64,000 bases of DNA from Patescibacteria group bacterium (GTDB lineage Bacteria; Patescibacteriota; Saccharimonadia; CAILAD01; JADZBC01): assembly GCA_052034495.1 (NCBI GenBank), contig JBPOIL010000001.1, forward strand, positions 84,293 through 148,292. Reading direction: 5' to 3'. Below the pieces are notes generated by a model. It made no database searches. It saw only the letters and a list, made by a program, of their open reading frames with translations, and was not told the DNA's origin. A program made the position numbers and the translations under genes. Below, one piece after another: positions 4,134-61,272 of the stretch. Within the stretch, counting starts at the first letter, position 1, and the number at the start of each line of letters is the position of its first letter.

Positions 4134-4300
4134 TGAAGCCAATCATATCAGTCAAAGAAGCTCGTAAGTTGCTTGGTAAAGATTATGAAAAGCTGACTGA
4201 CGAGAAGATAGCCGAACTGATTGAGCAACTACACGAACTAGCCAAGTTATCTTTAGATATGGCTCGTGAACAACGCCTCAAAAAACGCTTGGCAAAATGA
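4134..4300 (+). CDS. small hypothetical protein (55 aa) translationally coupled to res
   Basis: ATG overlaps the res stop (TAATG). Basic/helical sequence MKPIISVKEARKLLGKDYEKLTDEKIAELIEQLHELAKLSLDMAREQRLKKRLAK. Below the ORF-track cutoff. Confidence 0.3.
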
Positions 4301-4366
4301 CCCCCAAAAATTCGGCATTTCATATAGCGGAGTGTCAAACAGCGAAACAAAGGGCGACTACCCCCC

Positions 4367-8843: not shown

Positions 8844-8858
8844 GCGCTTAGCGAGTAT

Positions 8859-9575
8859 TTGCAGGTCAAACGGAGTTTCGTACGGGTATATCGCTGGGGT
8901 ATACTGGCTTTTATGAAGAAGCATTCCTTTAGTCGATTAGGCGGCATGGTGGAGAGAAGATGGCTAGTGCTGGCATTGATTTTAGCCATGTTTCTAAGCA
9001 TTTGCGCCTTACTAATTGTAAAAAGAGAAAAGCCAGCTCGACAAGCAGCGAGTGTCGTCTCTTACTCTACCAATAAGCCTGATGAAACGAAGCCAAATAA
9101 GTCATACGAGTGGACAGGAAAACCAGAAGACCCGAAGAAGATCTTGATCTCAAGCTTGGGGATAGATGGCTACATGCAGAACGTCGGCGTTGATCAGAAC
9201 AAGGAAGTAGCTGTTCCCAATAATATCCATGTCGCAGGTTGGTTTGTGGAGAGTGTGCGTCCCGGGGAGAAGGGGCTGAGCATTATCGACGGCCACGTGG
9301 ATGGACGGACACAAGGTGGAATATTCGAAGATCTGGCAAAGATAAAACCTGGCGCTGAGGTGCAAATACAATTTGGGAATGGGGCAAAGAAGAAATTCAA
9401 AGTGATGAAGGTCGAGGAGGTTGCAGAGGACAAGGCCGCCAGCGTGTTGTTCTCGCAAAGCCCGAAGACCACGAACCAACTCAACTTGATCACATGCAGC
9501 GGAGACTTTAATAAGAACACTGAACGGTATGAAAAGCGTGTTATTGTCAGCACGGAGCTAGTGCCGCAAAGCTAG
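8859..9575 (+). CDS. sortase family transpeptidase (likely true start at ATG 8913, MKKHSF...)
   Basis: N-terminal TM anchor. Conserved His in IDGHVDGR. Active-site LNLITCSG (TLxTC motif). Confidence 0.7.
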   Translation: MQVKRSFVRVYRWGILAFMKKHSFSRLGGMVERRWLVLALILAMFLSICALLIVKREKPARQAASVVSYSTNKPDETKPNKSYEWTGKPEDPKKILISSLGIDGYMQNVGVDQNKEVAVPNNIHVAGWFVESVRPGEKGLSIIDGHVDGRTQGGIFEDLAKIKPGAEVQIQFGNGAKKKFKVMKVEEVAEDKAASVLFSQSPKTTNQLNLITCSGDFNKNTERYEKRVIVSTELVPQS

Positions 9576-9631
9576 GCTTGCTTGAAGATTCTTCTCGGTT
9601 AGTATATCCTTAGCGTAAGCACTAAAACAAA

Positions 9632-11401
9632 ATGAAAAGAAAAAAATACACATTATTATTCAGTCTGGCTTTGCTCGCAGTCACTGTGGGTGGAGCCCTT
9701 TTGTATTTTAATGACTGGGTAGGTCCGGTAGCGTCAAGCACGCCAAGGCCGGTCAAGGTGGAAGACAGCCTTATTGCCCCGCGTCAGGATGAGGGGATAG
9801 CAGGAGGCGAAAAGAAGCCTCAAGCAACTGCAGATTATCCTGAACCGAAAGCCAAGAGTACCGGCGCTATGCCACTTGTGCGCTTTGAATCACCCAGTGC
9901 CAAGGCTCTGTTTTTGAAAGAGAACAGGCTCTCGTTAGCCGATGTAAACTACATCGATGAACTAGATGTTTATAGGATTAATAGGTCAGGCATTAAGTCT
10001 ACGAGAGGTTCGAGACTGTATGAGCCGCAGCGCTACCGAGCACTCCTAACCCCGAACGATACCTTCTACAGTTCGCAATGGCACTTGCATAAGGTAAACG
10101 CTTTACCAGCCTGGAACAATACCATGGGTGACGAGTCGGTCGTGATTGCAGTAATTGACACGGGCTTTGGCCTGCAGCACGAAGACTTGGATGAAAAGTG
10201 GGCCATCGATAGCGGGGAGGTCGGGCCGACTGCCAACGAGGGCGGTGCGCCAAACTGCACGAGTCGTGGTCTAGCGCTAGACAAGTCATGTAATAATATT
10301 GACGATGACGGCAATGACTATATTGACGACTACAGAGGCTGGGACTTTACCGGGGCGGATAATAGTGTGCAGGCAGGTGAAACAAGCCCGGCCGATCCTT
10401 CTGCAACTCACGGCACCTTCGTAGCTGGTTTGGCTGCAGCCGAATCCAGCAATGCACAGGGTGTAAGTGGCGTTTCGTGGGGCTCAAAGGTCTTACCAAT
10501 TCAGGCACTAAGCGATACAGGGGATGGCGATACGGTGTCTGTGGCACTGGCTATAAACTATGCAGTAGCACAGGGCGCAGGGGTAATAAACATGAGCTTG
10601 GGCTCGGACGGGGACGACCCGTTGGTTGCCGAGCAAGTTCAGGCGGCAATTGATGCTGGGGTATCAGTCGTTGCCGCCGCTGGTAATGACGGCTGGGCAC
10701 AACTGTCTTACCCCGCAAGCTACCCAGGTGTAATCGCGGTCGGGGCTACTGATAGCTCTGACAATAGGGTCAGCTTTTCGAACTACAGTTCAAACCTTGC
10801 GCTTGTAGCACCTGGCACGAGCTCGATTTGTTCTACCGCCTGGACAGAGGGTCAGCCAATCGATCGGTACGTCTGTGGCTACAGCGGCACATCATTTTCT
10901 TCGCCAATAGTCGCCGGAGCCGCTGCACTGCTGATCTCGCAGAATAGTACTTTGACGCCAGCCCAGGTCAAGACGGCACTTACCTCGACAGCTACGAAGG
11001 TTGCAGGTATGGCCGGCCAGAACTTTACGACTCGTTATGGCTATGGTCGATTGAACACCTATGAAGCACTCAAAAGTATTTCGCTTGCCGCACCACTTGG
11101 CCACGTCCTCAATACCCATACGGTTAGCTTGGCTGCCACCACAGGAATCTACCGTCCGGAAATGAATTCCACATGCACGAGTTACCATGCGTCTGCTCAG
11201 TGCAGAGTGCGCGCAATCAATACGGCTAGCAACCAGGTAGTATGGCTGGCAAACGAGCCGGGAGCGGCATCTGAGCTGAACACATATTGGAACGCTTCGA
11301 GTAGCAACCTTGGTGTCGGTACTTGGTTGGTTCAAGCATTTGCCGAGGCGACTGGCAGGCGCAGTTTAGTGCGCGAAGAGAGCCTTACGGTAAATCCTTA
11401 A
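9632..11401 (+). CDS. S8 family (subtilisin-like) serine peptidase, secreted
   Basis: Catalytic triad motifs VIAVIDTG (Asp), HGTFVAG (His) and GTSFSSPIVAG (Ser). N-terminal signal/TM. Confidence 0.8.
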   Translation: MKRKKYTLLFSLALLAVTVGGALLYFNDWVGPVASSTPRPVKVEDSLIAPRQDEGIAGGEKKPQATADYPEPKAKSTGAMPLVRFESPSAKALFLKENRLSLADVNYIDELDVYRINRSGIKSTRGSRLYEPQRYRALLTPNDTFYSSQWHLHKVNALPAWNNTMGDESVVIAVIDTGFGLQHEDLDEKWAIDSGEVGPTANEGGAPNCTSRGLALDKSCNNIDDDGNDYIDDYRGWDFTGADNSVQAGETSPADPSATHGTFVAGLAAAESSNAQGVSGVSWGSKVLPIQALSDTGDGDTVSVALAINYAVAQGAGVINMSLGSDGDDPLVAEQVQAAIDAGVSVVAAAGNDGWAQLSYPASYPGVIAVGATDSSDNRVSFSNYSSNLALVAPGTSSICSTAWTEGQPIDRYVCGYSGTSFSSPIVAGAAALLISQNSTLTPAQVKTALTSTATKVAGMAGQNFTTRYGYGRLNTYEALKSISLAAPLGHVLNTHTVSLAATTGIYRPEMNSTCTSYHASAQCRVRAINTASNQVVWLANEPGAASELNTYWNASSSNLGVGTWLVQAFAEATGRRSLVREESLTVNP

Positions 11402-29470: not shown

Positions 29471-29546
29471 GGGCCCGTAGCTCAGTGGTTAGAGCAGTCG
29501 GCTCATAACCGATTGGTCGCTGGTTCAAATCCAGCCGGGCCCACCA
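29471..29546 (+). tRNA. tRNA with CAT anticodon; sequence closely resembles E. coli tRNA-Ile2 (lysidine; ileX) rather than tRNA-Met
   Basis: GGGCCCGTAGCTCAGTGGTTAGAGCAGTCGGCTCATAACCGATTGGTCGCTGGTTCAAATCCAGCCGGGCCCACCA. Cloverleaf with anticodon loop CTCATAA. Encoded CCA. Confidence 0.85.
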
Positions 29547-36159: not shown

Positions 36160-36236
<77 letters not shown>

Positions 36237-36301: not shown

Positions 36302-36378
36302 GGCTGAGTAGCTCAGTTGGTTAGAGCGCGGGACTCATAAGCCCGAGGTCGGTGGTTCAATCCCACCCTCAGCCACCA
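36302..36378 (+). tRNA. elongator tRNA-Met (CAT)
   Basis: GGCTGAGTAGCTCAGTTGGTTAGAGCGCGGGACTCATAAGCCCGAGGTCGGTGGTTCAATCCCACCCTCAGCCACCA, similar to E. coli metT. Confidence 0.85.
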
Positions 36379-36444: not shown

Positions 36445-37773
36445 ATGATTGAGCGACTAAACCAACACTTGAGTAAGAGTGGATTGCTTCCGCAGGGCAG
36501 CAGCATTGTTGTGGCTGTTTCGGGCGGTGTAGATTCGGTAGCTCTGCTCGATATGCTGATGGAATTAAAGGAAGAGTATGGCTGGGATATTGCAATTGCA
36601 CACCTGGATCATAAGGTTCGACCAAGTTCGGCCGATGACGCGCAAATGGTTGCCGATATGGCTCGCAAGTACGATGCGAAATACTACCTAGGGCAATTGG
36701 GTGGTGACGAAACACGCGAAGCAGGCCTGCGCCGAGCACGCTATGACTTTCTGGAGGCTATTCGTAGTGGCCACCAGGCCAACTGGATAGTTACGGCCCA
36801 CCATCGTGACGACCGGATAGAAACATCCATCTTTAACACGATTCGTGGTGCCGACCGCTACGGCATGACGGCAATGCGCCCCGTGCGGGGTAGAATCGTT
36901 CGACCACTTTTGCCCTTCCGTAAAGGAGACTTGATAGCCTACGCTCACGCAAAGGGACTGCCCTTTGTGGAGGACGAGACGAACTCCGACCAGTCGTATA
37001 GTCGCAACTTTGTTCGCCATTCGTTGCTACCACTTGCGTCGCAGTACGATACGAACTTCCATGATGATTACCTTAAAAGGCTTGATAAGATGGAAGAGCT
37101 GAATGTGTCGATCGAGCACGGACTGGAGCAGATTATTACCTATCTGGATCGCGGCAGTAAAGGTGATAAGTTGAAGCTCGACCGAGTTGGGTTTGCAAAA
37201 CTTTCGCCAGTTATTCAATTAAACTTGCTTGTCCACATTGCTCGGCAGCTGTGCCCCGGCATTGGTCTATCCGAAGTGAACTTAGGCGAGGCACAGCGCT
37301 ACTTACTCAACGCCAAGACTGGTACGCACAAGACTATCGGCGGCATGCTCGAGCTTCGAAGAGACTACGATGTACTCGTGCTGCTGCCAGTTCAAACAGC
37401 TGTAGATTCAGACCAGGCCAGTAGGGTTGTACCTCTTAGCCTGGGTGGTGCCATAGAGTTTGGGCGCTACTTGCTTGCGCTAAATAGCCCAAGTGGGTCT
37501 GAGGTGTTTGATTCTGCATGGCTGAAACCAGGTAGTTACTACGTGCGGAAGTGGTGCAAAGGTGATAGAATATACCCTGCTGGGATTCAGGGGTCTAAGA
37601 AAATGAGCGATCTTTTCATAGACAAGAAGGTCCCGCAATCAGACAGGCTGGATTGGCCAATTATTGTGAATACCCAAAATGAGATTGTGTGGGTGCCGGG
37701 CCTCGGTATCGGTAGGAAGTTTGTGGGCACACCCGAATCTAATGATTATTATGTAACTTGTGAGGTGATATGA
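36445..37773 (+). CDS. tilS: tRNA(Ile)-lysidine synthetase
   Basis: PP-loop VAVSGGVDSVAL. 442 aa. Conserved tilS-ftsH linkage. Confidence 0.85.
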   Translation: MIERLNQHLSKSGLLPQGSSIVVAVSGGVDSVALLDMLMELKEEYGWDIAIAHLDHKVRPSSADDAQMVADMARKYDAKYYLGQLGGDETREAGLRRARYDFLEAIRSGHQANWIVTAHHRDDRIETSIFNTIRGADRYGMTAMRPVRGRIVRPLLPFRKGDLIAYAHAKGLPFVEDETNSDQSYSRNFVRHSLLPLASQYDTNFHDDYLKRLDKMEELNVSIEHGLEQIITYLDRGSKGDKLKLDRVGFAKLSPVIQLNLLVHIARQLCPGIGLSEVNLGEAQRYLLNAKTGTHKTIGGMLELRRDYDVLVLLPVQTAVDSDQASRVVPLSLGGAIEFGRYLLALNSPSGSEVFDSAWLKPGSYYVRKWCKGDRIYPAGIQGSKKMSDLFIDKKVPQSDRLDWPIIVNTQNEIVWVPGLGIGRKFVGTPESNDYYVTCEVI

Positions 37774-44620: not shown

Positions 44621-45334
44621 ATGACCGAGAGACAATTCGACATACTAAGCAAGATTGTGCAGCATTATGCTGAAACTGCCGAGCCAGTTGGTTCGTTGGC
44701 TTTGGCTGACTATTTTGAGGTTAGTCCGGCTACAGTTCGTTCGGAAATGGCAGCACTCGAGCGATCAGGGTATATTTACCAGCCACATATATCTGCAGGT
44801 CGAGTCCCTACTGACGCGGGATACCGTCTCTACGTGAACAGCTTGAGCAAAAGCTCAGCTCAGAGTACTGAGCTAACGAGTACTCGAAGTGCCCAGACGA
44901 TCTCGAAGCGAGTTGAAAGCCTCAAGGACAGGACTGACGCGGCAATTAAGATTGCTGCCGAGACTCTGAGCGAGCTTACTGGCAACACTGCCTTCGCTAC
45001 ATTGAGCGACACCGTCTACTTCCACGGTCTACACCAGCTCTTTAGTCAACCAGAGTTCATAGACCAACTGCGGGCAGCTCAGGCGGCTCGGTTCCTGGAC
45101 CAAATGGGAGAGTGGCTCTTCGGGCATGAGTTTGCACAAGACCTGGGGGTGTTCATAGGCGAAGAGAACCCGTTTTTGCGCACAAGTGGCATGACCATGG
45201 TGGTGAGCAGATTTGAATCCCCGTATAGCACCAGTAGCTACATCGGGATTGTTGGGCCGACTAGGCAGAACTACAGCAAGGTCACGGCACTCGTTCGACT
45301 GACCGGTGAAAAATTAGAGGAGGCATTAGCATGA
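44621..45334 (+). CDS. hrcA: heat-inducible transcription repressor HrcA (short form)
   Basis: MTERQFDILSKIVQHYAETAEPVGSLALAD N-terminal wHTH. CIRCE upstream. grpE-dnaK downstream. Confidence 0.8.
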   Translation: MTERQFDILSKIVQHYAETAEPVGSLALADYFEVSPATVRSEMAALERSGYIYQPHISAGRVPTDAGYRLYVNSLSKSSAQSTELTSTRSAQTISKRVESLKDRTDAAIKIAAETLSELTGNTAFATLSDTVYFHGLHQLFSQPEFIDQLRAAQAARFLDQMGEWLFGHEFAQDLGVFIGEENPFLRTSGMTMVVSRFESPYSTSSYIGIVGPTRQNYSKVTALVRLTGEKLEEALA

Positions 45335-45867
45335 AACAAGACAGTAGTAAGCCAAAAGTTCAGAAGCGCGCCAAGCAGCCTTCGACTCAGGATTATCAGC
45401 AGCAAATAGGCGAGTTGACTGAGCACCTACAGAGGCTGCAAGCAGAATTTGAAAACTACAAAAAACGAGCTGAGTCGGAGCGAAGTGAAGTTATGAACCT
45501 AGCCAAGCTGTCGGTTTTGACAGAGCTTTTGCCGGCACTCGACAATTTTGACAGGGCTGCGACTCACCTACCACCCGAGTTAGAAGATAATGCCTGGGCG
45601 AAAGGCATGAGTTATGTAGGGTCACAATTAGAACAAATCCTCGACGGAATTGGGGTGCGCAAGTTCTCTGCTAAAGGGGAGGCGTTTGATCATAACCGCC
45701 ACGAAGCAATGGAGTATGTGGAGAGAGCTGGACCACCGGATATGATTGTCGAAGAGCTAACGCCGGGGTACGAGATAAACGGCAAAGTAGTTCGCCCCGC
45801 GACAGTAAAGGTTAGCAAAGCAATTAATCATGAAGTTAGTGAAGAGCAAGTAAAGGAAGAGGAGTAG
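45331..45867 (+). CDS. grpE: nucleotide exchange factor GrpE
   Basis: Coiled-coil N-terminus. [12 protein letters not shown]. 178 aa. Overlaps the hrcA stop. Confidence 0.85.
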
Positions 45868-45871
45868 CAAT

Positions 45872-47773
45872 ATGAGCAAGATTATCGGAATCGATTTAGG
45901 AACAACCAATAGTGCGATGTCAGTCATGGAGGGCGGTGACGCTACGGTGATTACAAACATTGAAGGCGCGCGTACTACGCCATCAATAGTGGCAGTAAAT
46001 AAGAACGGCGAGCGTTTGGTGGGCCAGGTGGCCAAGCGTCAGGCAGTTATTAACCCAGATAACACCATCTTTTCGGTCAAACGATTAATTGGGCGAACCT
46101 TCGATGATCCTGAAGTGCAGCGGGATATCGAACTCATGCCCTACAAGATCGAGAAGGCTGATGGCCACGTAAAGGTAAAGATGGGCGATAAGAGCTACAC
46201 GGCCGAGGAAGTCAGCGCTATGATTCTGGGCAAGCTCAAGGCTGACGCTGAAAAGTACCTTGGACAGCCTGTTACCGAGGCCGTCATTACTGTGCCGGCT
46301 TACTTTAACGATGCGCAGCGCCAGGCCACTAAGGATGCTGGTAAGATCGCAGGGCTTGAGGTTAAGCGAATTATCAATGAGCCAACTGCTGCTGCCCTAG
46401 CTTACGGACTCGATAAAAAGAAGGAAGAAAAGATCGTGGTTTACGATCTCGGTGGTGGTACCTTCGACGTGTCAGTGCTTGAATTGGGCGACGGCGTGTT
46501 CGAAGTGAAGTCTACCAATGGCGACACACACCTTGGTGGTGATGACTTTGATCTAACCATCATTAACTACTTGATCGAAGAGTTTAAGAAGGATCAGGGA
46601 ATTGACCTAAAGGGCGACAAAGCAGCCATGCAGCGACTCAAAGAAGCTGCCGAAAAGGCCAAAATTGAGCTCTCGACCACAAATGAAAGCAGTGTAAACA
46701 TTCCATTTGTTACAGCTGATGCCAGCGGACCGAAGCACATGGACCTCATGCTGACTCGTTCGCAGTTCGAAAAGATCGTAGGCGAGTTGGTAGATAAGAC
46801 CATGAAGCCATGCGAAGCCGCACTTAAAGATGCTGGACTTAAGGCATCTGACATCGACGAAGTTATCTTGGTTGGTGGTATGACCCGTATGCCTTTGGTT
46901 CAGAAGAAGGTCGAAGAGTTCTTTGGGAAGAAGCCACTACAGGGTGTTAACCCGGATGAGGTCGTAGCCATTGGCGCTGCAATCCAGGGTGGCGTGCTTG
47001 GTGGAGATGTTAAGGACGTATTGCTGCTCGATGTAACTCCGCTCTCACTATCAATCGAAACGATGGGTGGCGTAGCTACGCGCATGATTGAGCGCAACAC
47101 CACGATCCCTACAAGCAAAAGCCAGGTGTACTCTACTGCTGCCGACAATCAGACTTCGGTAGAAATTAATGTATTGCAGGGCGAGCGCGAGATGGCTGCC
47201 GACAACAAATCGCTTGGCCGATTCATCCTAGATGGTATCCCGCCAGCACCACGCGGTGTGCCGCAAGTTGAGGTTAGCTTCAATATCGACGCGAACGGCA
47301 TTGTAAATGTATCTGCCAAGGATAAGGCAACCGGCAAAGAACAGAAGATTACCATTACAGGTGGCGGTAGCTTGAGCGATGAAGACATTAAGAAGATGCA
47401 AGCAGACGCCGAGGCCCACGCCGACGAAGACAAGAAGAAGAAAGAAGCGGCAGAAGCTAAGAACCATGCCGATACCATGATCTACACCGCCGAAAAGTCG
47501 CTTAAAGACGCTGGCGATAAGGCCCCAGAGGAAGACAAGAAGGCCGTAGAGGATGCTATAAAGGCGTTGCGCGACAAACTTGATAGTGGTGACGCCGAAG
47601 AGCTCAAGAAGCTTACAGAGGATCTTTCGACTAAGCTGACCAAGATTGGGGAAGCAATGTACAAAGAGGCTGAAGCCGAGCAAAAAGCCGAAGAGGCAAA
47701 GACCGAGGGTGAAGCGAAGAAAGAAGCTGACGCCGAAGAGGGCGAAGTAGTCGACAAGGAAGAAACTAAGTAA
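45872..47773 (+). CDS. dnaK: molecular chaperone DnaK (Hsp70)
   Basis: [18 protein letters not shown]. 633 aa. Confidence 0.97.
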
Positions 47774-49736: not shown

Positions 49737-50231
49737 ATGCCGGATCTAAGCTTCAATACAGTCTTGTTTGCCTCCCTTGGGGCAGGGTTTGCACTGGCCT
49801 TCTTTGCTGGTGAAGCACGAGTAAGGAAGCTCGCTGCCGGTGCTCTCGTGGGCTATTTAGTTGCCATGCAGCTTGGAGAATTTGTACTTGCTCAGCTTGG
49901 CAAAGTAAGCTTCATCCCAGAGTTGAGCCTTGGCACTGTGCAGATCATTTTGTTTGCTTTCATTACCCTCTCGTTCAATCTCGGTAGGGCACACCAATTA
50001 GAAGGGCGGCCACGAGTGAATGTAGAATCTATTGTGGTGGCTGTAATTACGGCGACGTTCATATTCACTTCGGTATTGGGCTTTTTGGGTGAAGAGACCC
50101 GCTCGGGCCTCATGAATGATTACAACTTAGCCGCCATGCTGTATGAGTGGCGCTTGTTGCTACTTGGGCTCACTGCTGGCGGCCTTATCCTGCTAGAGGT
50201 CATGGGCGCAAACACGAAGAAGCCAAGGTAA
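49737..50231 (+). CDS. hypothetical multi-TM membrane protein
   Basis: 164 aa, hydrophobic. Confidence 0.5.
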   Translation: MPDLSFNTVLFASLGAGFALAFFAGEARVRKLAAGALVGYLVAMQLGEFVLAQLGKVSFIPELSLGTVQIILFAFITLSFNLGRAHQLEGRPRVNVESIVVAVITATFIFTSVLGFLGEETRSGLMNDYNLAAMLYEWRLLLLGLTAGGLILLEVMGANTKKPR

Positions 50232-50281: not shown

Positions 50282-51580
50282 TTGCTCATAATGAAAATCC
50301 AAAGAAAAAAAACCATCCAACGCTTTACAACCCGCTTCGTTAATTGGGCGGCCATTCGTGTTAATAAAATTCACAAACCCGTTGTAATTGTTGTAACCGG
50401 ATCGATAGGCAAGACTTCTACTCGCAAGGCCATATCTGACGTGCTTGATTCTAAGTATAGAATCTACCACAGTACATCTAGTATTAATTCGAAGAGGGGC
50501 CTGCGACTACACTTTTTTGGAATTCACTCCATGTATGGAATCAAAAGGTTTCGTGATTGGCTTGGCTACATGGCGCGGATCTGCTGGATGATGTTCTCGT
50601 ACCCGTATGACGCAGTGGTTCTTGAAGTTGCTGAGAACTATATAGACAGTAGCCTCGCAATTTTGAGGAAGATTGATCCTAAGATTTGCGTAGTCACTGG
50701 CGTTGCGGACGCCCATATGGAGCATTTAGGAAGTAAACGACGCCTGATGAAGAATATCCGCAAGATAGCTGAGTGTTGTGATGAAGTTATATACTCCGCT
50801 GACTTTGATGAACTGCAGGTTCTCTTCGGCAGTTCTCGGGCAAAGAGTTATGGTATTGAAGGCGGCGAATATCGACCATCAAACATCACAAGAATGAGGG
50901 ATGGCTTACTAAGCTTCGACATCGTGGTTGACGGAGCAAGGAGACGAGTTAAAACCCAAATGATTGCACGACACCTACTCCTTCCATACGCTGCTGCCGC
51001 AATAATAGGAAAAGAACTGGGCCTGGATGCTAGCAGTATAGTTTCTGCACTAGAAGACCTTGAGCCTGTGCATGGCAGGATGAATCTGCTTAAGGCCAAC
51101 TGCGGCGCTTCTATTATCGACGATAGCTACAATGCTAACCTAGTTAGTGCCAAGGCGGCTCTTGATCAACTTAAAGAATTTAGCGGCTATAAGGTTGCAG
51201 TTATTGGTACCATGAACGAGCTTGGAGCTAAGGCTGACGAGCATCATGCCGAACTGGCAATGTATGCCTCAACTGTCGCTGATAAGCTCATATTCGTGGG
51301 AGAGAGGGCTGAATATATGAAATCAAAGGCTACAAAGAATTTGGCGCGCAGTGGTGACCTATATGCTTTTCATGATACTAAGGCGGCCGGAAAATTCTTA
51401 AACGAGAATATAGGTAATACCTGGACGGTTTTGTTTAAAGGTTCCGGTGCTAATGTCTACCTCGAGGAGGCAATCAAGCGGTTAATTCCTGCGGCCGAAG
51501 TGTCCTCCTTGGTGCGACAAAGTCCGAATTACATTCGCCGAAAAGAAGAGTACTTCGCCCTTCTTGATATTGACAATTAG
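50282..51580 (+). CDS. murF: Mur ligase family protein, MurF-like (UDP-MurNAc-pentapeptide synthetase-like)
   Basis: VVTGSIGKTSTR P-loop. ASIIDDSYNANLVSAKAAL. C-terminal VLFKGSGANVYLEE. Confidence 0.65.
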   Translation: MLIMKIQRKKTIQRFTTRFVNWAAIRVNKIHKPVVIVVTGSIGKTSTRKAISDVLDSKYRIYHSTSSINSKRGLRLHFFGIHSMYGIKRFRDWLGYMARICWMMFSYPYDAVVLEVAENYIDSSLAILRKIDPKICVVTGVADAHMEHLGSKRRLMKNIRKIAECCDEVIYSADFDELQVLFGSSRAKSYGIEGGEYRPSNITRMRDGLLSFDIVVDGARRRVKTQMIARHLLLPYAAAAIIGKELGLDASSIVSALEDLEPVHGRMNLLKANCGASIIDDSYNANLVSAKAALDQLKEFSGYKVAVIGTMNELGAKADEHHAELAMYASTVADKLIFVGERAEYMKSKATKNLARSGDLYAFHDTKAAGKFLNENIGNTWTVLFKGSGANVYLEEAIKRLIPAAEVSSLVRQSPNYIRRKEEYFALLDIDN

Positions 51581-51663
51581 CCTCAAAAAACCTATAATAG
51601 GTTAAAAGATAGGTACTAGTCTTAGCCCTGTTGGAATACAATTAACCCAAAGAGGGATTTTTT

Positions 51664-52569
51664 ATGCGCATCGTCATCTTGAGCAGTCACAAAAACGGCA
51701 AAGGACCTCAAAGGTTGCTACAAGCCGCGCTCGACCGTGGTCATGAGGCTGAAATCATTGACTACCGCAAATGCTACTGCAACATCGTGAAGAGCAAGCC
51801 TCAGGTTTATTATCAGGGCAAAGCCCTGGAAGGAGTAGACGCAATTATTCCTCGTATTGCAATTGCCAACCAGTCGTACGGTAGTGCTATTATTCGCCAG
51901 TTTGAAATGATGGGCGTGTTTACTACCACGGGCTCGCTGGCCTTCCTGCGCGCTCGAGATAAGCTACGCAGTGCCCAGCTTTTTGCGCGTCACGACATCG
52001 ATCTTCCCAAGACTGTTTTCGCCCGCGAGACAAAAAATGTAGACGAGCTAATCGATATGGTTGGGGGTGCTCCGCTTATCGTTAAGCTCGCCCGCGGCAG
52101 TCTAGGAGCTGGTGTTATTTTGGCCGAAACTCGCAAAGCTGCGAAGTCGATTATTCAAGCATTCTACTCAGAGAATATGAACATTTTAGTGCAGGAATTT
52201 ATAGAGGAATCACGCGGTACCGATATCCGTGTATTTATCGTGAATGGGAAAATATCCGCCGCCATTAAGCGTCAAGCAAAAGGGGATGAGTTTAGGTCTA
52301 ATATATCACTTGGCGCAACTGCAGAGGAGATCGAGCTTAAAAAGAAAGAAGCTAATCTTGCCCTTAAGGCCGCTCAGAGAATGAATCTGGCTATAGCGGG
52401 TGTTGATATTCTTCGCTCCAAGCGCGGCCCGCTTATTATGGAGGTGAATGCTTTTCCAGGTTTTGCCGGTATTGAAAAAACTACTGGCAAAGACGTTGCA
52501 GGCCAGGTGATTGAGTATATCGAAGAGAATGTCTCAAAGAAACGACGCCGAGACAAAGTAGGGGCTTAA
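51664..52569 (+). CDS. rimK: RimK-family ATP-grasp alpha-L-glutamate ligase
   Basis: Close to E. coli RimK: GVDILRSKRGPLIMEVNAFPGFAGIEKTTGKDVAGQVIEYIE. Confidence 0.8.
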   Translation: MRIVILSSHKNGKGPQRLLQAALDRGHEAEIIDYRKCYCNIVKSKPQVYYQGKALEGVDAIIPRIAIANQSYGSAIIRQFEMMGVFTTTGSLAFLRARDKLRSAQLFARHDIDLPKTVFARETKNVDELIDMVGGAPLIVKLARGSLGAGVILAETRKAAKSIIQAFYSENMNILVQEFIEESRGTDIRVFIVNGKISAAIKRQAKGDEFRSNISLGATAEEIELKKKEANLALKAAQRMNLAIAGVDILRSKRGPLIMEVNAFPGFAGIEKTTGKDVAGQVIEYIEENVSKKRRRDKVGA

Positions 52570-52578
52570 GTTCTCAAG

Positions 52579-53148
52579 ATGAAGGTCCTGATTATTGATA
52601 ACAATACTCAGCATATTGCTAAGATAAAGCGACTGCTGCGGGACTACGATTGTATGGTAGTCTCCGCTGAAGATTTAGGGAGTGTGCGGGCCGAGGAATT
52701 CGACCTTATTGTTCTTAGTGGCGGGCGGGGTAGGGCCGTTGTGCGTAATCGCAAGTACTACATCTTGGAGAGAGAAATAATCTCAGAGTCCAATGTGCCT
52801 ATCATAGGCATCTGCCTCGGTGCCCAGATGATAGCGGACGTATATGGCGGAAGGCTAGAGCGATTAGGTGTTCGTCGCCGGCTATACAATAAGATTAGTT
52901 TTGTAGATGGTAGCGAGTACGACCTTGGCCATAGAATCAACTGGGTTTTTCAGATGCATAAGTGGGCGATCAGGAAGTTGCCAGATACGTTCAGAACCCA
53001 TGCGGTGTCGGGTGACGGCATAGAGCTCTTTGAGCACGCCTCACGTCCGCTATACGGTATGCAGTTTCATCCCGAAGTTCGCTATGGCAGTAGCCATGGG
53101 GCAGATATCTTTCACGCTGTAGTCTCGCAGATCACCAAGTCGACGTAG
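52579..53148 (+). CDS. class I glutamine amidotransferase (GATase1) domain protein
   Basis: Catalytic Cys in IIGICLGAQM. GMQFHPE His/Glu motif. Confidence 0.7.
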   Translation: MKVLIIDNNTQHIAKIKRLLRDYDCMVVSAEDLGSVRAEEFDLIVLSGGRGRAVVRNRKYYILEREIISESNVPIIGICLGAQMIADVYGGRLERLGVRRRLYNKISFVDGSEYDLGHRINWVFQMHKWAIRKLPDTFRTHAVSGDGIELFEHASRPLYGMQFHPEVRYGSSHGADIFHAVVSQITKST

Positions 53149-53217: not shown

Positions 53218-53294
53218 GGGCCTGTAGCTCAGTTGGTTAGAGCACCTGCCTTTTAAGCAGGGTGTCATGGGTTCGAGTCCCATCAGGCCCTCCA
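53218..53294 (+). tRNA. tRNA-Lys (TTT)
   Basis: GGGCCTGTAGCTCAGTTGGTTAGAGCACCTGCCTTTTAAGCAGGGTGTCATGGGTTCGAGTCCCATCAGGCCCTCCA. Anticodon loop CTTTTAA. Confidence 0.85.
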
Positions 53295-53298
53295 AAGA

Positions 53299-53335
53299 AA
53301 GCGCCTCACGCAAGTGGGGCATTTTCTTTTTACTC
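53299..53335 (+). terminator. hairpin (gcgcctcac-gcaa-gtggggc) plus T-run after tRNA-Lys
   Basis: Stem with one G-U wobble pair, followed by ATTTTCTTTTT. Confidence 0.5.
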
Positions 53336-53375: not shown

Positions 53376-54830
53376 ATGCATAGGTCGACACAAATACTGA
53401 TTGCTGCTATCGGCTTGATGTGCGGCATTGTGTTCGCGCGATACTACGGTTCGGCTTGGAGTTGGCAAATGCTTGGCTGGGCAGTGCTGGCGCTTGCGGC
53501 AGCTGTCGTTATCCGCAGGAGTAGCCTCGCATATGTCCTAATCTGCTTGCTTGCGTTTGCCATAGGCATGTTGCGTCAAGACATATTTATCGCGCAGCAG
53601 CCCGCCAGGACGATTGATAGTTTGCAGTATAGCAAACACATAGTAGTCGGCACCGTAGCTAGCGAGCCCTTTCGCGACGACAAGACAAACTATGTATCTT
53701 ACTTTAAGGATTTGGTAGTCGATGGAGAGCCTGTCGCAGGCGATCTTCGAGTTAAGTCGCTCGTGGCAAGTGCCAAAGAAGGCTATCGGGTCGAAGTGCA
53801 GGGCAAAGTATTGCCCAGCTTGGGCAAAGCTAGCAGTTCTGTCAGTTATGCAAAAGTATCAATACTTTCAACCCGGCAAAGCATCCTTGTCCAAGCAAAG
53901 AGCGAGTTTAGTAAGGGAGTTAGAAGAGCATTACCCGAGCCTGTCGGGAGCTTTATGCTCGGTATCCTAATAGGTGCCCGCTCGACATTACCGAAGGAGC
54001 TACAAGACACGATGGCACTCATTGGTCTGTCCCATCTCATCGCCGTATCGGGTTATAACTTAACGATAATAACCCTGGCTATTCAGGGCTTGGCCGGCAA
54101 GAAGTGGCAGTGGGCAAGCCTGGTTGGTACATTGTGGCTAATCGTTGGTTTCGTGGTCTTAACTGGTGCATCAGCGTCGATCGTACGGGCGGGGATTATG
54201 TCCACACTCTTCTTGCTCGCATCGTATTACGGCCGTAAGCTTGAGGTTCTAACGTGCTTGGCCTTGGGCATCATCATTACCCTCATGTGGAGCCCAGCAT
54301 ATATTTCCGACCTAAGCTGGCAGCTATCATTCTTGGCGCTTGGAGGTATCGTCCTGCTCACCCCAGTTGTACGGGCATTGATACCGCAACGGTTCGGGGC
54401 TGCAGGGGAGATAGCTGCAGTTTCTGTCGCCGCACAAATCGCCACTATGCCGCTCGTTGCCTATGTATTTGGTAGCATATCTGTCGTGGCGCCATTAGCA
54501 AATGTGATCTTCCTGCCCTTCGTGCCAATACTGATGCTACTCGGGCTCTTAGCCGGCCTAATTGGCATGCTCGCCCCAGGCGTTGCGTTCGCGGCTGCAT
54601 GGCCAATTGGGGGTGTTGTGAATGCGATGCTGGATTGCATGAGGTATCTGGCCGGCTTGCCGGGCGCCGCAATCAATGGCACTACGCCCTCGGAGTTTGC
54701 CGTACTGGCGTTCTACGCTCTACTCGTCACACTGGGTCTGCTAGCGCATCGTCGTGGCTTGGGCTCGTCGGTGGCTAATGCTATAATTACAGGTAGAAAA
54801 GAAGGAACTACAGATGAGCGGACACAGTAA
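53376..54830 (+). CDS. comEC: ComEC/Rec2-family DNA-uptake channel (competence domain only; no metallo-beta-lactamase domain)
   Basis: Multi-TM. LIGLSHLIAVSGYNLTII competence-domain motif. 484 aa. Confidence 0.7.
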   Translation: MHRSTQILIAAIGLMCGIVFARYYGSAWSWQMLGWAVLALAAAVVIRRSSLAYVLICLLAFAIGMLRQDIFIAQQPARTIDSLQYSKHIVVGTVASEPFRDDKTNYVSYFKDLVVDGEPVAGDLRVKSLVASAKEGYRVEVQGKVLPSLGKASSSVSYAKVSILSTRQSILVQAKSEFSKGVRRALPEPVGSFMLGILIGARSTLPKELQDTMALIGLSHLIAVSGYNLTIITLAIQGLAGKKWQWASLVGTLWLIVGFVVLTGASASIVRAGIMSTLFLLASYYGRKLEVLTCLALGIIITLMWSPAYISDLSWQLSFLALGGIVLLTPVVRALIPQRFGAAGEIAAVSVAAQIATMPLVAYVFGSISVVAPLANVIFLPFVPILMLLGLLAGLIGMLAPGVAFAAAWPIGGVVNAMLDCMRYLAGLPGAAINGTTPSEFAVLAFYALLVTLGLLAHRRGLGSSVANAIITGRKEGTTDERTQ

Positions 54831-59433: not shown

Positions 59434-59853
59434 TTAGTTCGCGCTTTGTAGCTCGTATACGTCTATAGTGCCCTTTTTAATGTCTTTGTCCTTTGGATTC
59501 TCCAGGTTTGTTTGTAGTACATATGCACTAATTGGGTTGCCGCTCGTGCTGTAACGATATTGGGTCTTCGACTTAGGGTCTGTGGGGAGCGGGGGCTTAA
59601 TGTACGGGGTGGCACCTTCCGCAAGGGTAACGAGCTGCGCTGGATAGCTGCCGTTCTCCTGGTAATAGCGTTCGAGCGCGTTCTTGACCTTCGACAGGTC
59701 TTGCTTACGATCTGCGTCCCGGGCATTGATTGGACCTGCGACAAGGCGGGGATAGAGCACAAAGGCCAAGAGGCTGATAATGACAATTACCAATAGTAGC
59801 TCTAAAAGGGTAAAACCGTTTTGCTGTCTAAGCTTGCTGCTGAAAGAATTCAT
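59434..59853 (-). CDS. type IV pilin-like / T2SS GspG-like pseudopilin (prepilin N-terminal methylation domain)
   Basis: GFTLLELLLVIVIISLLA prepilin signal. YYQENGSYPAQL GspG-like motif. Confidence 0.75.
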   Translation of the reverse strand: MNSFSSKLRQQNGFTLLELLLVIVIISLLAFVLYPRLVAGPINARDADRKQDLSKVKNALERYYQENGSYPAQLVTLAEGATPYIKPPLPTDPKSKTQYRYSTSGNPISAYVLQTNLENPKDKDIKKGTIDVYELQSAN

Positions 59854-59976
59854 TCCACCTCTATAGTTCTTTAGCTCATATTGTATGACTTTTATGCTTT
59901 GGGGGCAAGTTGTGAGATCTTACAAAACACACTGCTCATGCTTTACGCTTCGAAAAACAGTTTTTAGAATTGGGCA

Positions 59977-61272
59977 ATGAAAAAATATTTGTTCCTCACT
60001 ATCCTGATTATTAGTCTTAGTTCGTATCCATCCGTAGTGTTGCGGGCAAGTGCTTCAGCGCAAAGTGGCGTTGTCATGAGTGAGGTTGTAACGGGCCACA
60101 CGGATAGCCTAAGTAAAGAATTTATCGAGCTATATAACAACGGAGTCGAGCCTGTTGATGTATCGGGCTGGACACTAGACTATAAGTCCGCGACAGGGAA
60201 AACCTGGTCTAAACGAGCTACAATATCCGAAGCTACCGTAATGGGCTCAAGAACGATCTTGGTCGTCAGTACCGAAGACGCCGCAGAACGCAAGCTCACT
60301 AGCGGGATGTCTCAGACTGGTGGCAACGTTCGACTTAGGGATAAGCAGGGCAATGTCGTGGATCAGCTAGCGTGGGGTGATGGTGATAGCCCAGAGTTGC
60401 AGGCCGTACTTGCTCCTGCGGTCGGGCAGGCAATTACCCGGAGTTTAGCCGAGGATCCCTCTGCACTTGTGGACACAGACAATAACTATGAAGACTTTGT
60501 ACTGAGCCCTGCCCCAACACCAGGACTACTAGGAACGCCAGAAGTGGTAGAAGACGAACCTGTGCCAACTTCCGAATCCGTGGTGGACGCAAATAGGCTG
60601 TTCATTAGCGAGCTTTTGCCCGATCCAGAATCTCCTCTGAGTGATGCGCAGGATGAATACATTGAGCTCTACAATGAAGGGGATACTGCAATCAGTCTTG
60701 AGGGATGGAGTCTGCGTGACAAAACGAACCATGTTTATAGACTTACCAATCTAAGTGTCGACGCCAAGAGCTTCCTGGTACTTAAAAGCGACGAGACGAA
60801 AATTAGCCTTAACAACGATGGCGACGAAATCTTCCTTGTTGATCCAACTGGCAACATTGTCGATAACAGCCCTGATTACGGTAGCGCGAAGCCGGGTCTC
60901 GCATGGGGCTTGAGTGACGGAGGCTGGGCATGGCTGAGCGAGCCTACTCCGGGCTCCTCGAACGCTACTGCTGTTCCCCCTAAGGCCGTGGCTCAGAGTT
61001 TATCTGCGAAGAAGTCTGTGGCTAAGAAGTCAACAGCCAAGCCAAAGAAGGCAAAGGTGGCTAAAAAAGCGAAGAAAACAAGTAAGCTCGCGTCCGCACG
61101 TGCGGCTAGCTCGCGACCATATACAGAGCCTGTTATGAACAGCAATGCAGGTATTTGGTCATGGTTGCTGATCGGTCTCGGTGCGGGTACCATAGGGTAT
61201 GGAATATATGCATACAAACCCGAAATTACACATACAATCCACCAGCTTAGAGCAAAGCTTAGCGATCGGTGA
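59977..61272 (+). CDS. lamin tail domain (LTD) protein with two LTDs, Lys/Ala-rich linker and C-terminal TM anchor
   Basis: EFIELYNNGVEPVDVSGWTL and EYIELYNEGDTAISLEGWSL LTD signatures. Signal peptide. Confidence 0.7.
   Translation: MKKYLFLTILIISLSSYPSVVLRASASAQSGVVMSEVVTGHTDSLSKEFIELYNNGVEPVDVSGWTLDYKSATGKTWSKRATISEATVMGSRTILVVSTEDAAERKLTSGMSQTGGNVRLRDKQGNVVDQLAWGDGDSPELQAVLAPAVGQAITRSLAEDPSALVDTDNNYEDFVLSPAPTPGLLGTPEVVEDEPVPTSESVVDANRLFISELLPDPESPLSDAQDEYIELYNEGDTAISLEGWSLRDKTNHVYRLTNLSVDAKSFLVLKSDETKISLNNDGDEIFLVDPTGNIVDNSPDYGSAKPGLAWGLSDGGWAWLSEPTPGSSNATAVPPKAVAQSLSAKKSVAKKSTAKPKKAKVAKKAKKTSKLASARAASSRPYTEPVMNSNAGIWSWLLIGLGAGTIGYGIYAYKPEITHTIHQLRAKLSDR

What the first reader, a model, noticed from the sequence alone, without database searches (positions are those of the whole stretch)
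50282..53148. murF-like Mur ligase followed by RimK ATP-grasp ligase and a stand-alone GATase1
An N-terminally short MurF-like enzyme (DDSYNAN and GKTST motifs) is followed by a near-canonical RimK (alpha-L-glutamate ligase) and a class I glutamine amidotransferase, away from other cell-wall genes. ATP-grasp ligases include Ddl, and GATases (GatD type) amidate stem peptides. Together the three could form a module that builds or modifies a non-canonical peptidoglycan stem peptide or another poly-amino-acid. The alternative is coincidental adjacency with RimK acting on ribosomal protein S6.
Basis: partly seen in the sequence, partly recalled or inferred. Interest (0 to 1): 0.5.

Follow-up and report, generated by a model that had tools for sequence, protein, structure and literature searches.

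The report
RimK–amidotransferase cassette with extra MurF copy
A Saccharibacteria-type genome carries a conserved gene pair, the protein-tail glutamate ligase RimK plus a small glutamine amidotransferase, and in this lineage a second, fast-evolving copy of the cell-wall ligase MurF sits beside it; this points to an undescribed variant of C-terminal tail modification rather than to a new cell-wall pathway.

Summary
The three ORFs are real and intact: a MurF-like Mur ligase with no N-terminal domain (50291-51580), a canonical RimK (51664-52569) and a class I glutamine amidotransferase (GATase) with a Cys-His-Glu triad (52579-53148).

The conserved unit is RimK+GATase, not the trio. In every Saccharibacteria-type relative examined, RimK is followed within 4-20 nt by this GATase, downstream of the dnaK-dnaJ operon. 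A perfect sigma-70 consensus promoter (51570-51598) lies between the Mur ligase and RimK.

In 80 other metagenomic RimK loci, no GATase sits directly downstream (0 of 70 informative), but 73 carry the RimB deglutamylase. The Saccharibacteria-type cassettes lack RimB, so in this sample the two partners are mutually exclusive.

The Mur ligase is not the housekeeping MurF. A conventional short MurF of the candidate-phyla-radiation (CPR) type, P0261, is inferred to lie on the same 258,055-nt contig. The RimK-adjacent copy belongs to a rare, divergent clade, and all four of its known members lie directly upstream of a RimK cassette.

Best reading, partly inferred: a RimK-centred C-terminal glutamylation system with a new GATase partner and a recruited MurF paralogue. 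The peptidoglycan stem-peptide reading has no direct support. I found no paper describing these pairings.

The parts
49737..50231 (+). About 165-aa predicted membrane protein with no Pfam match. It is the conserved left-hand neighbour of the RimK cassette. Listed as context; not shown to be functionally linked.
   Evidence: No family hits. Homologues of 162-176 aa sit between dnaJ and the cassette in L001, L087, L090 and L179, at 27-36% identity to the window copy.
50291..51580 (+). Divergent MurF-like Mur ligase paralogue with central and C-terminal domains only (the ORF as listed starts at TTG 50282). It is inferred to be an active ATP-dependent amide ligase that is not the housekeeping MurF.
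   Evidence: Domains and scores. AF2 model and MurF fold. All invariant catalytic columns are kept, but only 64 of 91 family-conserved columns, against 75-82 for main-clade Saccharibacteria MurF. A second MurF, P0261, is inferred on the same 258,055-nt contig. Only two other 50%-cluster representatives exceed 40% identity among 1.84 billion. It has the lowest GC of the 16 sampled genes (0.452).
51570..51598 (+). Sigma-70-type promoter TTGACA-17-TATAAT (12 of 12 matches), about 65 nt upstream of the RimK ATG and overlapping the Mur stop codon.
   Evidence: Comparable sites (10-11 of 12) lie 50-80 nt upstream of RimK in L001, L087 and L090. A consensus match is not proof of function.
51664..52569 (+). 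RimK, an ATP-grasp alpha-L-glutamate ligase. It is the core of the cassette.
   Evidence: It is 62-81% identical across Saccharibacteria loci, which is comparable to DnaK.
52579..53148 (+). Small class I glutamine amidotransferase (Cys79-His164-Glu166) that starts 9 nt after the RimK stop. It is inferred to be an accessory partner of RimK.
   Evidence: AF2 model pLDDT 93.5; nearest folds are GMP synthase subunit A, PabA/ADCS and TrpG. It lies directly downstream of RimK in the window, L001, L005, L087, L090 and L093. No such neighbour was found in 70 informative control RimK loci.
53218..53320 (+). tRNA-Lys(UUU) (53218-53294) followed by a terminator-like hairpin (53303-53320). This is the right-hand boundary of the cassette; ComEC follows.

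Best explanation
Conserved unit (shown by comparative data). RimK and the small GATase form a two-gene cassette. It has its own strong promoter and sits downstream of hrcA-grpE-dnaK-(PPase)-NYN-dnaJ in Saccharibacteria-type genomes.

What it does (inferred). RimK does what canonical RimK does: it uses ATP to add alpha-linked L-glutamates to a C-terminal carboxylate, presumably that of ribosomal protein S6. The GATase is its accessory partner and stands in the place that the RimB deglutamylase occupies in ordinary bacteria. Two roles are possible and I cannot separate them:
(a) It is a glutaminase subunit docked to the ATP-grasp enzyme, as CarA docks to CarB. In that case it delivers NH3 to the acyl-phosphate, which would amidate or cap the tail, or it couples tailing to glutamine supply.
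(b) It is a Cys-His-Glu hydrolase that trims the oligo-Glu tail, making it a functional analogue of RimB.

The Mur ligase (largely shown). It is an extra, fast-evolving paralogue of the short CPR-type MurF, because a conventional MurF is inferred on the same contig. It keeps the full catalytic apparatus.

Its role (inferred, about even odds). It has been recruited to the RimK system and ligates an amino acid or dipeptide onto a carboxylate of the same product. Other lineages have a second ATP-grasp enzyme or a MurL-like enzyme next to RimK, which may be analogous.

Sub-confidences: RimK+GATase is a functional pair, 0.85. The Mur ligase is a second, non-housekeeping copy, 0.85. The Mur ligase works with RimK, 0.45-0.5.
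For: RimK identity: NF007764 at 337.8 bits (cutoff 331), and full-length matches to solved RimKs.

Pairing with the GATase:
- The GATase follows RimK within 4-20 nt, or overlaps it, in the window, L001, L087, L090, L093 and L005, over RimK identities of 49-81%.
- A promoter lies upstream of RimK in 4 loci.

Control: of 80 metagenomic RimK loci at 49-55% identity, 0 of 70 informative loci have a GATase directly downstream, and 73 of 80 carry RimB-like PF05618. The Saccharibacteria-type cassettes have no RimB. L179 has RimB and no GATase. RimB removes Glu from polyglutamylated RpsF and stimulates RimK (PMC11957791).

GATase: the triad is invariant, and the nearest sequences and folds are glutaminase subunits.

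Mur ligase is a paralogue:
- P0261 is 93% identical to the L002 MurF and 36% identical to the window Mur ligase.
- P0261, together with orthologues of its MscL and Peptidase_C39_2 neighbours, is on a contig of 258,055 nt. That is the same length as the contig carrying the window's Mur, RimK, GATase and DnaK proteins.

Mur-RimK linkage:
- All 4 known contexts of the divergent Mur clade (window, the P0002 contig, L001, L179) are immediately upstream of RimK. The 3 other contexts examined are not: L002 and L097 are MscL-Mur-C39_2, and L096 is a dcw cluster.
- L179 is a close relative of L087 (DnaK 90% identical), yet L087 has no Mur ligase at the locus and its RimK is only 49% identical to the L179 RimK.
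- The divergent clade keeps 62-64 (P0005: 69) of 91 conserved columns, against 75-82 for main-clade MurF.
- A second carboxylate-activating enzyme is present in 6 of 9 cassettes.
Against: - No biochemical evidence of any kind is available.
- rpsF is not in the window or in any fetched Saccharibacteria locus, so an S6 C-terminal Glu-Glu could not be checked.
- Members of the GATase family also occur without RimK, in L003/L004 and L007.
- The GATase's nearest structures are ammonia-donating subunits rather than gamma-glutamyl hydrolases. This weakens role (b). No RimK-type enzyme is known to use NH3, which weakens role (a).
- The Mur ligase lies upstream of the RimK promoter, so it need not be co-transcribed with RimK. 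It is absent from most RimK-GATase cassettes.
- Its best family match is still MurF. Conserved gene order in small genomes can persist without any functional link.
- The grouping of P0005 with the window clade comes from a neighbour-joining tree and could be long-branch attraction: window versus P0005 is 36% identical, the same as window versus main-clade MurF.
Confidence: 0.5

Rival explanations
1. The Mur ligase is adjacent by accident. Under this reading the extra MurF copy is a second peptidoglycan isozyme, for example one that takes a different dipeptide or a different third residue. It landed between the membrane-protein gene and the RimK promoter by chance. RimK+GATase then acts on S6 independently of it.
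For: The best family and fold matches are MurF, and all catalytic columns are kept. A separate promoter lies in front of RimK. Most RimK-GATase cassettes have no Mur ligase. Gene order is highly conserved across these small genomes.
Against: Adjacency to RimK holds for all four known members of the divergent clade, including L179, where the RimK is of a different, RimB-linked type. The clade has lost about 15 more family-conserved positions than housekeeping MurFs. Other lineages place other carboxylate-activating enzymes in the same position.
Confidence: 0.3
2. The trio tailors a non-canonical peptidoglycan stem peptide: the ATP-grasp enzyme adds Glu to a precursor, the Mur ligase adds a further residue, and the GATase amidates in the manner of GatD.
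For: All three enzyme families have members that tailor peptidoglycan: Asl-type ATP-grasp ligases and MurT/GatD (established knowledge). [quoted passage not shown] MurJ and GlmS in the window show that the organism makes peptidoglycan.
Against: RimK passes the S6-ligase equivalog cutoff and is 50-55% identical to ordinary RimKs. It matches Ddl only weakly, at 25.7 bits. The GATase is PF00117 of the GuaA/TrpG type, not the CobQ/GatD type. The Mur ligase has Mur_ligase_C rather than the MurT DUF1727 domain. RimK-GATase is conserved without any Mur ligase. The cassette never sits with dcw genes.
Confidence: 0.1
3. A split polymer synthetase resembling cyanophycin synthetase. RimK makes a free poly-alpha-glutamate backbone, the Mur ligase decorates side-chain carboxylates as the CphA1 M domain does, and the GATase amidates or recycles.
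For: RimK makes free poly-alpha-Glu in vitro (Kino 2011, cited in PMC4431377; PMC11957791). CphA1 combines ATP-grasp and Mur-ligase-like domains (established knowledge). Weak NCBIfam hits of both proteins to cya_phycin_syn, at 65.6 and 21.3 bits.
Against: The scores are far below the 850-bit cutoff. The genes are not fused and there is no CphA N domain. No cyanophycinase lies next to the cassette in the window. The Mur ligase is absent from most cassettes.
Confidence: 0.07

Closest known systems
RimK / RimB (RimABK) ribosomal protein S6 polyglutamylation system of Pseudomonas and E. coli
   Same: The RimK here is full-length and passes the equivalog cutoff. It aligns end to end with solved Pseudomonas and E. 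coli RimK. As in Pseudomonas, it is encoded with a small accessory hydrolase-fold protein.
   Different: The partner is a class I GATase downstream of RimK rather than the retropepsin-like RimB upstream. There is no RimA. Relatives add a MATCAP-like metallopeptidase, extra GATases, GGACT, a second ATP-grasp enzyme or a MurL-like enzyme. This lineage adds a MurF paralogue. The S6 substrate is untested.
MurF (UDP-MurNAc-tripeptide--D-Ala-D-Ala ligase), short CPR form
   Same: Central and C-terminal Mur ligase domains, all catalytic motifs, and a MurF-like fold. It has the same architecture, without an N-terminal domain, as the copy that sits between ftsI and mraY in L096.
   Different: It scores below the murF family cutoff, is not in a cell-wall gene context, and is a second copy beside a conventional one (P0261). 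It is the most divergent clade at otherwise conserved columns.
MurT/GatD lipid II amidotransferase
   Same: A Mur-ligase-fold enzyme without a UDP-binding N-terminal domain is encoded near a glutaminase. Foldseek finds MurT among the distant hits.
   Different: There is no DUF1727 domain. The GATase is not the CobQ/GatD type. The two genes are separated by RimK and by a promoter. The GATase tracks RimK, not the Mur ligase.
Carbamoyl-phosphate synthetase CarA/CarB (class I GATase plus ATP-grasp synthetase)
   Same: It is the known precedent for a triad GATase delivering NH3 to an acyl-phosphate-forming ATP-grasp enzyme. CPS small-subunit structures appear among the fold and sequence matches.
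   Different: The GATase here lacks the CarA N-terminal docking domain. RimK is a single ATP-grasp unit that uses an amino acid as nucleophile. Any complex between the two is purely inferred.
Tubulin tail cycle (TTL/TTLL ATP-grasp ligases with MATCAP and CCP peptidases)
   Same: In relatives, an ATP-grasp ligase acting on an acidic C-terminal tail is encoded with a MATCAP-family (PF08014) metallopeptidase: L001, L005, L087, L179.
   Different: No MATCAP homologue is present in this window. The bacterial proteins are only distantly related to one another (25-29% identity). No substrate is known.
Cyanophycin synthetase CphA1
   Same: It combines ATP-grasp and Mur-ligase-like catalytic modules to build a branched poly-amino-acid.
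   Different: Here the genes are separate, similarity is very weak (65.6 and 21.3 bits against a cutoff of 850), and there is no N domain.

Membership tests
RimK (ribosomal protein S6--L-glutamate ligase) | Pre-ATP-grasp domain plus RimK-type ATP-grasp domain | tested here: met
   PF18030 at 109.5 bits and PF08443 at 207 bits, both full length.
RimK (ribosomal protein S6--L-glutamate ligase) | Score at or above the curated equivalog cutoff | tested here: met
   NF007764 at 337.8 bits against a cutoff of 331. The margin is narrow.
RimK (ribosomal protein S6--L-glutamate ligase) | End-to-end similarity to experimentally characterised RimK | tested here: met
   7qys and 7qyr at E about 1e-92; 4iwx and 5zct at E about 4e-88; residues 1-291/296 aligned.
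RimK (ribosomal protein S6--L-glutamate ligase) | Substrate S6 with a C-terminal Glu-Glu in the same organism | not testable with these tools
   No rpsF in the window or in the Saccharibacteria loci.
RimK-RimB system | Adjacent RimB-like retropepsin protease (PF05618) | tested here: not met
   No hit in the window, L001, L005, L087, L090, L093 or L101. Present in L179/L180 and in 73 of 80 control loci.
MurF | Mur ligase central and C-terminal domains with P-loop, DDSYNAN and the other catalytic motifs | tested here: met
MurF | N-terminal UDP-MurNAc-binding domain | tested here: not met
   The P-loop is at residue 40 and the AF2 model has one helix (2-31) in place of the domain. The domain is also absent from the whole CPR family, including the dcw-cluster copy in L096.
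MurF | Score at or above the curated family cutoff | tested here: not met
   TIGR01143 at 187.4 bits against a cutoff of 288.6.
MurF | It is the genome's MurF (single copy, or in a cell-wall gene context) | tested here: not met
   P0261, a conventional CPR MurF, is inferred on the same 258,055-nt contig. The context here is dnaJ-membrane protein-Mur-RimK.
MurF | Activity with UDP-MurNAc-tripeptide and D-Ala-D-Ala | not testable with these tools
   This needs an enzyme assay.
MurT/GatD | MurT C-terminal DUF1727 domain paired with an adjacent CobQ-type GatD glutaminase | tested here: not met
   The Mur ligase hits Mur_ligase_C (PF02875), not DUF1727. The GATase is PF00117. RimK lies between the two genes.
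Class I (triad) glutamine amidotransferase | Cys-His-Glu triad within the GxCxG and HPE motifs, and the GATase1 fold | tested here: met
   C79, H164 and E166 are invariant in 16 sequences. Model pLDDT 93.5, with TM about 0.8-0.85 to the GuaA-A, PabA and TrpG subunits.
Peptidase C26 (gamma-glutamyl hydrolase type) | Closer to hydrolases than to amidotransferase subunits | tested here: inconclusive
   PF07722 at 45.1 bits (cutoff 20.5) overlaps a stronger PF00117 hit. The nearest structures are all amidotransferase subunits.
Cyanophycin synthetase | Fused N-G-M architecture and a family-level score | tested here: not met
   TIGR02068 at 65.6 bits (RimK) and 21.3 bits (Mur) against a cutoff of 850. 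The genes are separate.
Known anti-phage defence systems | Match to a PADLOC model | tested here: not met
   No hits for any of the four proteins.

The most novel reading that the evidence does not exclude
Saccharibacteria and related CPR bacteria may run a modular system that edits protein C-terminal tails, a bacterial counterpart of the tubulin tail cycle. RimK would polyglutamylate a target. A variable second carboxylate-activating enzyme would extend, cap or epimerise the tail: the MurF paralogue here, and elsewhere a second ATP-grasp enzyme or a MurL-like enzyme. A GATase-fold enzyme, a MATCAP-like metallopeptidase or RimB would amidate or trim it. The MurF paralogue would then be the first Mur ligase that acts on a protein or peptide tail rather than on a nucleotide-linked or small-molecule substrate.
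Probability: 0.2. Interest if true: 0.85.

Novelty: new variant of a known kind. Interest (0 to 1): 0.55.

Why it matters
RimK-dependent glutamylation of ribosomal protein S6 reshapes the proteome in Pseudomonas (PMC4741518, PMC7343187). Here RimK is retained in genomes that appear small and reduced, and it is about as conserved as DnaK. It is also wired to a different partner, a glutamine amidotransferase instead of RimB.

If the GATase couples tail synthesis to glutamine, or caps or trims the tail, that would be a new control principle for ribosome modification. It would also give a handle on the physiology of bacteria thought to live as epibionts on other bacteria.

The extra MurF copy shows that 'MurF' annotations in these genomes cover two functionally distinct proteins. 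That matters for reconstructing cell-wall metabolism in CPR bacteria. It could also reveal a Mur ligase with a non-cell-wall substrate.

All of this is directly testable with four recombinant proteins and synthetic peptides.

Tried and rejected
- Genome-collection scan with the GATase alignment. The back-translated motifs (GICLG, QFHPE) are shared with GuaA, so 79 of the 80 loci were ordinary GMP-synthase-type GATases. Only L007 belongs to the family, and it has no RimK nearby.
- Metagenome scan with RimK. It returned only RimKs at 49-55% identity, so I used them as a control set rather than as relatives.
- 'The short N-terminus marks a special enzyme': rejected. The P-loop starts at a median of residue 33 in 121 homologues, including a dcw-cluster copy.
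- 'The Mur ligase is simply the relocated housekeeping MurF': this was my working view. I rejected it.
- GrpE as a RimK target, because its C-terminus is ...KEEE: rejected, since this ending is not conserved in relatives.
- MurL-like and MATCAP proteins being one family: rejected (hhalign probability 0.1).
- A riboswitch or other RNA element in the cassette: none found.
- Defence system: no PADLOC hits.
- Literature searches returned nothing for RimK with MATCAP, DUF1704 or Saccharibacteria, and nothing for RimK with glutamine amidotransferase and gene neighbourhood. Searches for RimK with amidotransferase or with Mur ligase returned nothing relevant. The Iyer/Aravind 2009 amidoligase paper is not in the held library, so an earlier in-silico mention there cannot be excluded.


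Full report
OBSERVATION

The three ORFs are present exactly as described, on the + strand.

The first ORF is listed from TTG 50282. The ATG at 50291 gives the 429-aa protein P0001, which public gene calls use. It has Mur_ligase_M and Mur_ligase_C domains only. Its best curated family is murF, TIGR01143, at 187.4 bits, which is below the 288.6 cutoff. The GKTST and DDSYNAN motifs are there. Its P-loop starts about 50 residues earlier than in Thermotoga MurF. An AlphaFold2 model (pLDDT 94.8) shows one long helix (2-31) where the N-terminal domain would be, and its best PDB matches are MurF structures.

The second ORF is a canonical RimK. It has Rimk_N and RimK domains, scores 337.8 bits against NF007764 (cutoff 331), and aligns end to end with solved Pseudomonas and E. 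coli RimK.

The third ORF is a 189-aa class I glutamine amidotransferase (GATase). Its Cys79, His164 and Glu166 are invariant in the family. Its closest sequences and folds are the glutaminase subunits of GMP synthase, ADC synthase and anthranilate synthase, not gamma-glutamyl hydrolases.

A tRNA-Lys gene and a terminator-like hairpin close the block, and ComEC follows. The 64-kb window contains no other Mur ligase, ATP-grasp protein or GATase1 and no Ddl, but it does encode MurJ and GlmS.

WHICH GENES BELONG TOGETHER

RimK homologues at 62-81% identity were traced to their contigs: L001, L087-89, L090-92 and L093-95. All sit in one conserved Saccharibacteria locus: hrcA-grpE-dnaK-(PPase)-NYN-dnaJ, then (except in L093-95) a roughly 165-aa membrane protein, then RimK-GATase, and further on ComEC-YebC-RuvC-RuvA where the contig reaches that far.

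In all of these loci, and in a more distant CPR locus (L005), a GATase of the same orthologous group follows RimK within 4-20 nt or overlaps it.

A perfect TTGACA-17-TATAAT promoter lies between the Mur stop codon and RimK in the window. Sites scoring 10-11 of 12 occupy the same position in L001, L087 and L090. RimK-GATase is therefore a unit of its own.

RimK is strikingly conserved, 69-81% identical among these genomes, compared with 81-84% for DnaK. The GATase (36-47%) and the Mur ligase (34-42%) evolve fast.

As a control I used 80 metagenomic RimK loci at 49-55% identity. None of the 70 informative ones has a GATase directly downstream. Seventy-three of the 80 carry a RimB-like retropepsin protease (PF05618), mostly directly upstream. 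The Saccharibacteria-type cassettes have no RimB. The one Saccharibacteria locus that does have RimB (L179) has no GATase. The two partners are thus mutually exclusive in this sample.

RimB is known to remove glutamates from polyglutamylated S6 and to stimulate RimK (PMC11957791).

Relatives add further enzymes that act on C-terminal residues or glutamyl groups:
- MATCAP-family metallopeptidases (L001, L005, L087, L179).
- Extra GATase paralogues and GGACT (L087).
- A second ATP-grasp enzyme (L005).
- In L101, a MurL-like PP-loop protein whose start overlaps the RimK stop. [quoted passage not shown]

THE MUR LIGASE

The short architecture is not special to this gene. In 121 homologues the P-loop starts at a median of residue 33. 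One of them (L096) sits between ftsI and mraY in a classical dcw cluster, so this is simply how CPR MurF looks. In other Saccharibacteria the MurF sits in an MscL-MurF-Peptidase_C39_2 locus (L002, L097).

The window's copy is not that gene, for three reasons.

(i) It is unusually divergent, together with P0002, P0003 (L001) and P0005 (L179). Of 91 columns conserved in non-Saccharibacteria homologues, these proteins keep 62-69, whereas main-clade Saccharibacteria MurFs keep 75-82. All invariant catalytic columns are retained.

(ii) Cluster look-ups show that P0261 lies on a contig of 258,055 nt from the same sources. P0261 is a main-clade MurF that is 93% identical to the L002 MurF, 36% identical to the window's Mur ligase, and keeps 78 of 91 conserved columns. 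Orthologues of its MscL and C39_2 neighbours lie on a contig of that length too. This is exactly the contig length reported for the window's own Mur, RimK, GATase and DnaK proteins. I infer that the same contig carries a conventional MurF outside the window.

(iii) All four known contexts of the divergent clade are immediately upstream of a RimK cassette. In L179 the arrangement is Mur-RimB-RimK-MATCAP, with a 4-nt Mur/RimB overlap. That RimK is only about 50% identical to the others, although the L179 DnaK is 90% identical to that of L087, which has no Mur ligase at the locus.

An exhaustive search of 1.84 billion cluster representatives found only two others above 40% identity to the window's Mur ligase.

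Against a functional link: the Mur ligase lies upstream of the RimK promoter, most RimK-GATase cassettes lack it, and the tree grouping of P0005 with the window clade could be a long-branch artefact.

MECHANISM

Shown: a conserved RimK-GATase pair with its own promoter; an intact triad; an intact Mur ligase active site; a second MurF (inferred from contig identity).

Inferred:
- RimK adds alpha-L-Glu to a C-terminal carboxylate, presumably of S6. rpsF could not be examined.
- The GATase is RimK's accessory. One option is a glutaminase subunit that delivers NH3 to the acyl-phosphate, as CarA does for CarB, which would cap the tail, or that couples tailing to glutamine. The other option is a thiol hydrolase that trims oligo-Glu tails in place of RimB. 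Fold similarity favours the first option; the exclusivity with RimB favours the second. I cannot separate them.
- The MurF paralogue is probably an active amide ligase. At roughly even odds, it acts on the same product, since other lineages place another carboxylate-activating enzyme in the same position. Otherwise it is a second cell-wall isozyme that is merely adjacent.

COMPARISON AND NOVELTY

The RimK is a member of the RimK family by every sequence test I could run.

The Mur ligase works like MurF but fails several MurF membership tests: the family cutoff, the N-terminal domain, the genomic context and single-copy status.

The arrangement is not MurT/GatD, because the domain types are wrong and the GATase tracks RimK. 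It is not a cyanophycin synthetase, and it is not a known defence system.

Full-text searches found no paper that links RimK with a GATase, with MATCAP/DUF1704, with a Mur ligase in this sense, or with Saccharibacteria. The 2025 RimB/RimK survey mentions none of these. The 2009 amidoligase survey by Iyer and Aravind could not be read.

VERDICT

The finding is a new variant of a known kind (the RimK system). Interest is 0.55.

Noticed in passing
L101:161-3791: A metagenomic contig carries GATase-RimK-MurL-like-GATase. The 454-aa MurL-like protein scores 237 bits against NF041275, over its full length but far below the 700 cutoff. It has a GGGKDS motif that looks like a PP-loop, and its start overlaps the RimK stop. 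This suggests epimerisation or amidation of a RimK-added terminal L-Glu.
   Followed up: partly
L087:7001-12885: This locus has RimK-GATase-MATCAP, followed by two 230-aa GATase paralogues (54% identical to each other), a GGACT-like gamma-glutamyl cyclotransferase and an Rce1-like protease. It is a dense cluster of genes for processing glutamyl groups or C-terminal residues.
   Followed up: partly
L096:7001-8272 and 121 homologues (alignment A2): The whole CPR MurF family lacks the N-terminal UDP-binding domain: the P-loop starts near residue 33. It also carries a conserved C-terminal LVRQSxxWxxxKxxxF helix, even when the gene is embedded in a dcw cluster between ftsI and mraY. How these enzymes bind UDP-MurNAc-tripeptide is unclear.
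   Followed up: partly
window 51664-52569 versus 45872-47773: RimK is about as conserved as DnaK among these genomes (69-81% versus 81-84% identity). One relative has a RimK at least 90% identical while its Mur ligase is 59% and its GATase 67% identical. This implies very strong constraint on RimK in genomes that appear small and reduced.
   Followed up: partly
window 45331-45867: GrpE ends in ...VKEEE and is the only ORF of at least 70 aa in the window that ends in Glu-Glu. This resembles a RimK acceptor, but the ending is not conserved in the GrpE of relatives.
   Followed up: yes
window 95-5326: A type III-like restriction-modification pair (N6_N4 methylase at 95-1324, ResIII helicase at 1305-4133) and a DUF4238 protein (4367-5326, minus strand) lie in a stretch of lower GC (0.42 against 0.49).
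   Followed up: no
window 7752-11401: An Ig-like protein, a sortase (8859-9575) and a subtilase (9632-11401) lie in a row. This could be a cell-surface protein processing module.
   Followed up: no
window 29471-29546, 36160-36236, 36302-36378: Three tRNA-Met(CAT) genes, two of them in tandem just upstream of tilS (36445-37773). One may be the tRNA-Ile2 that TilS modifies.
   Followed up: no
window 59434-61272: A type IV pilin with an N-terminal methylation motif and a weak ComP_DUS match (59434-59853, minus strand) lies next to a protein with two lamin-tail domains (59977-61272). ComEC is at 53376-54830. This fits the DNA uptake expected in these bacteria.
   Followed up: no
L179:8001-12087: A close relative of L087 (DnaK 90% identical) has swapped the RimK-GATase cassette for Mur-RimB-RimK-MATCAP, with a RimK only 49% identical to that of L087. 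The site downstream of dnaJ therefore behaves as a replaceable cassette slot.
   Followed up: partly
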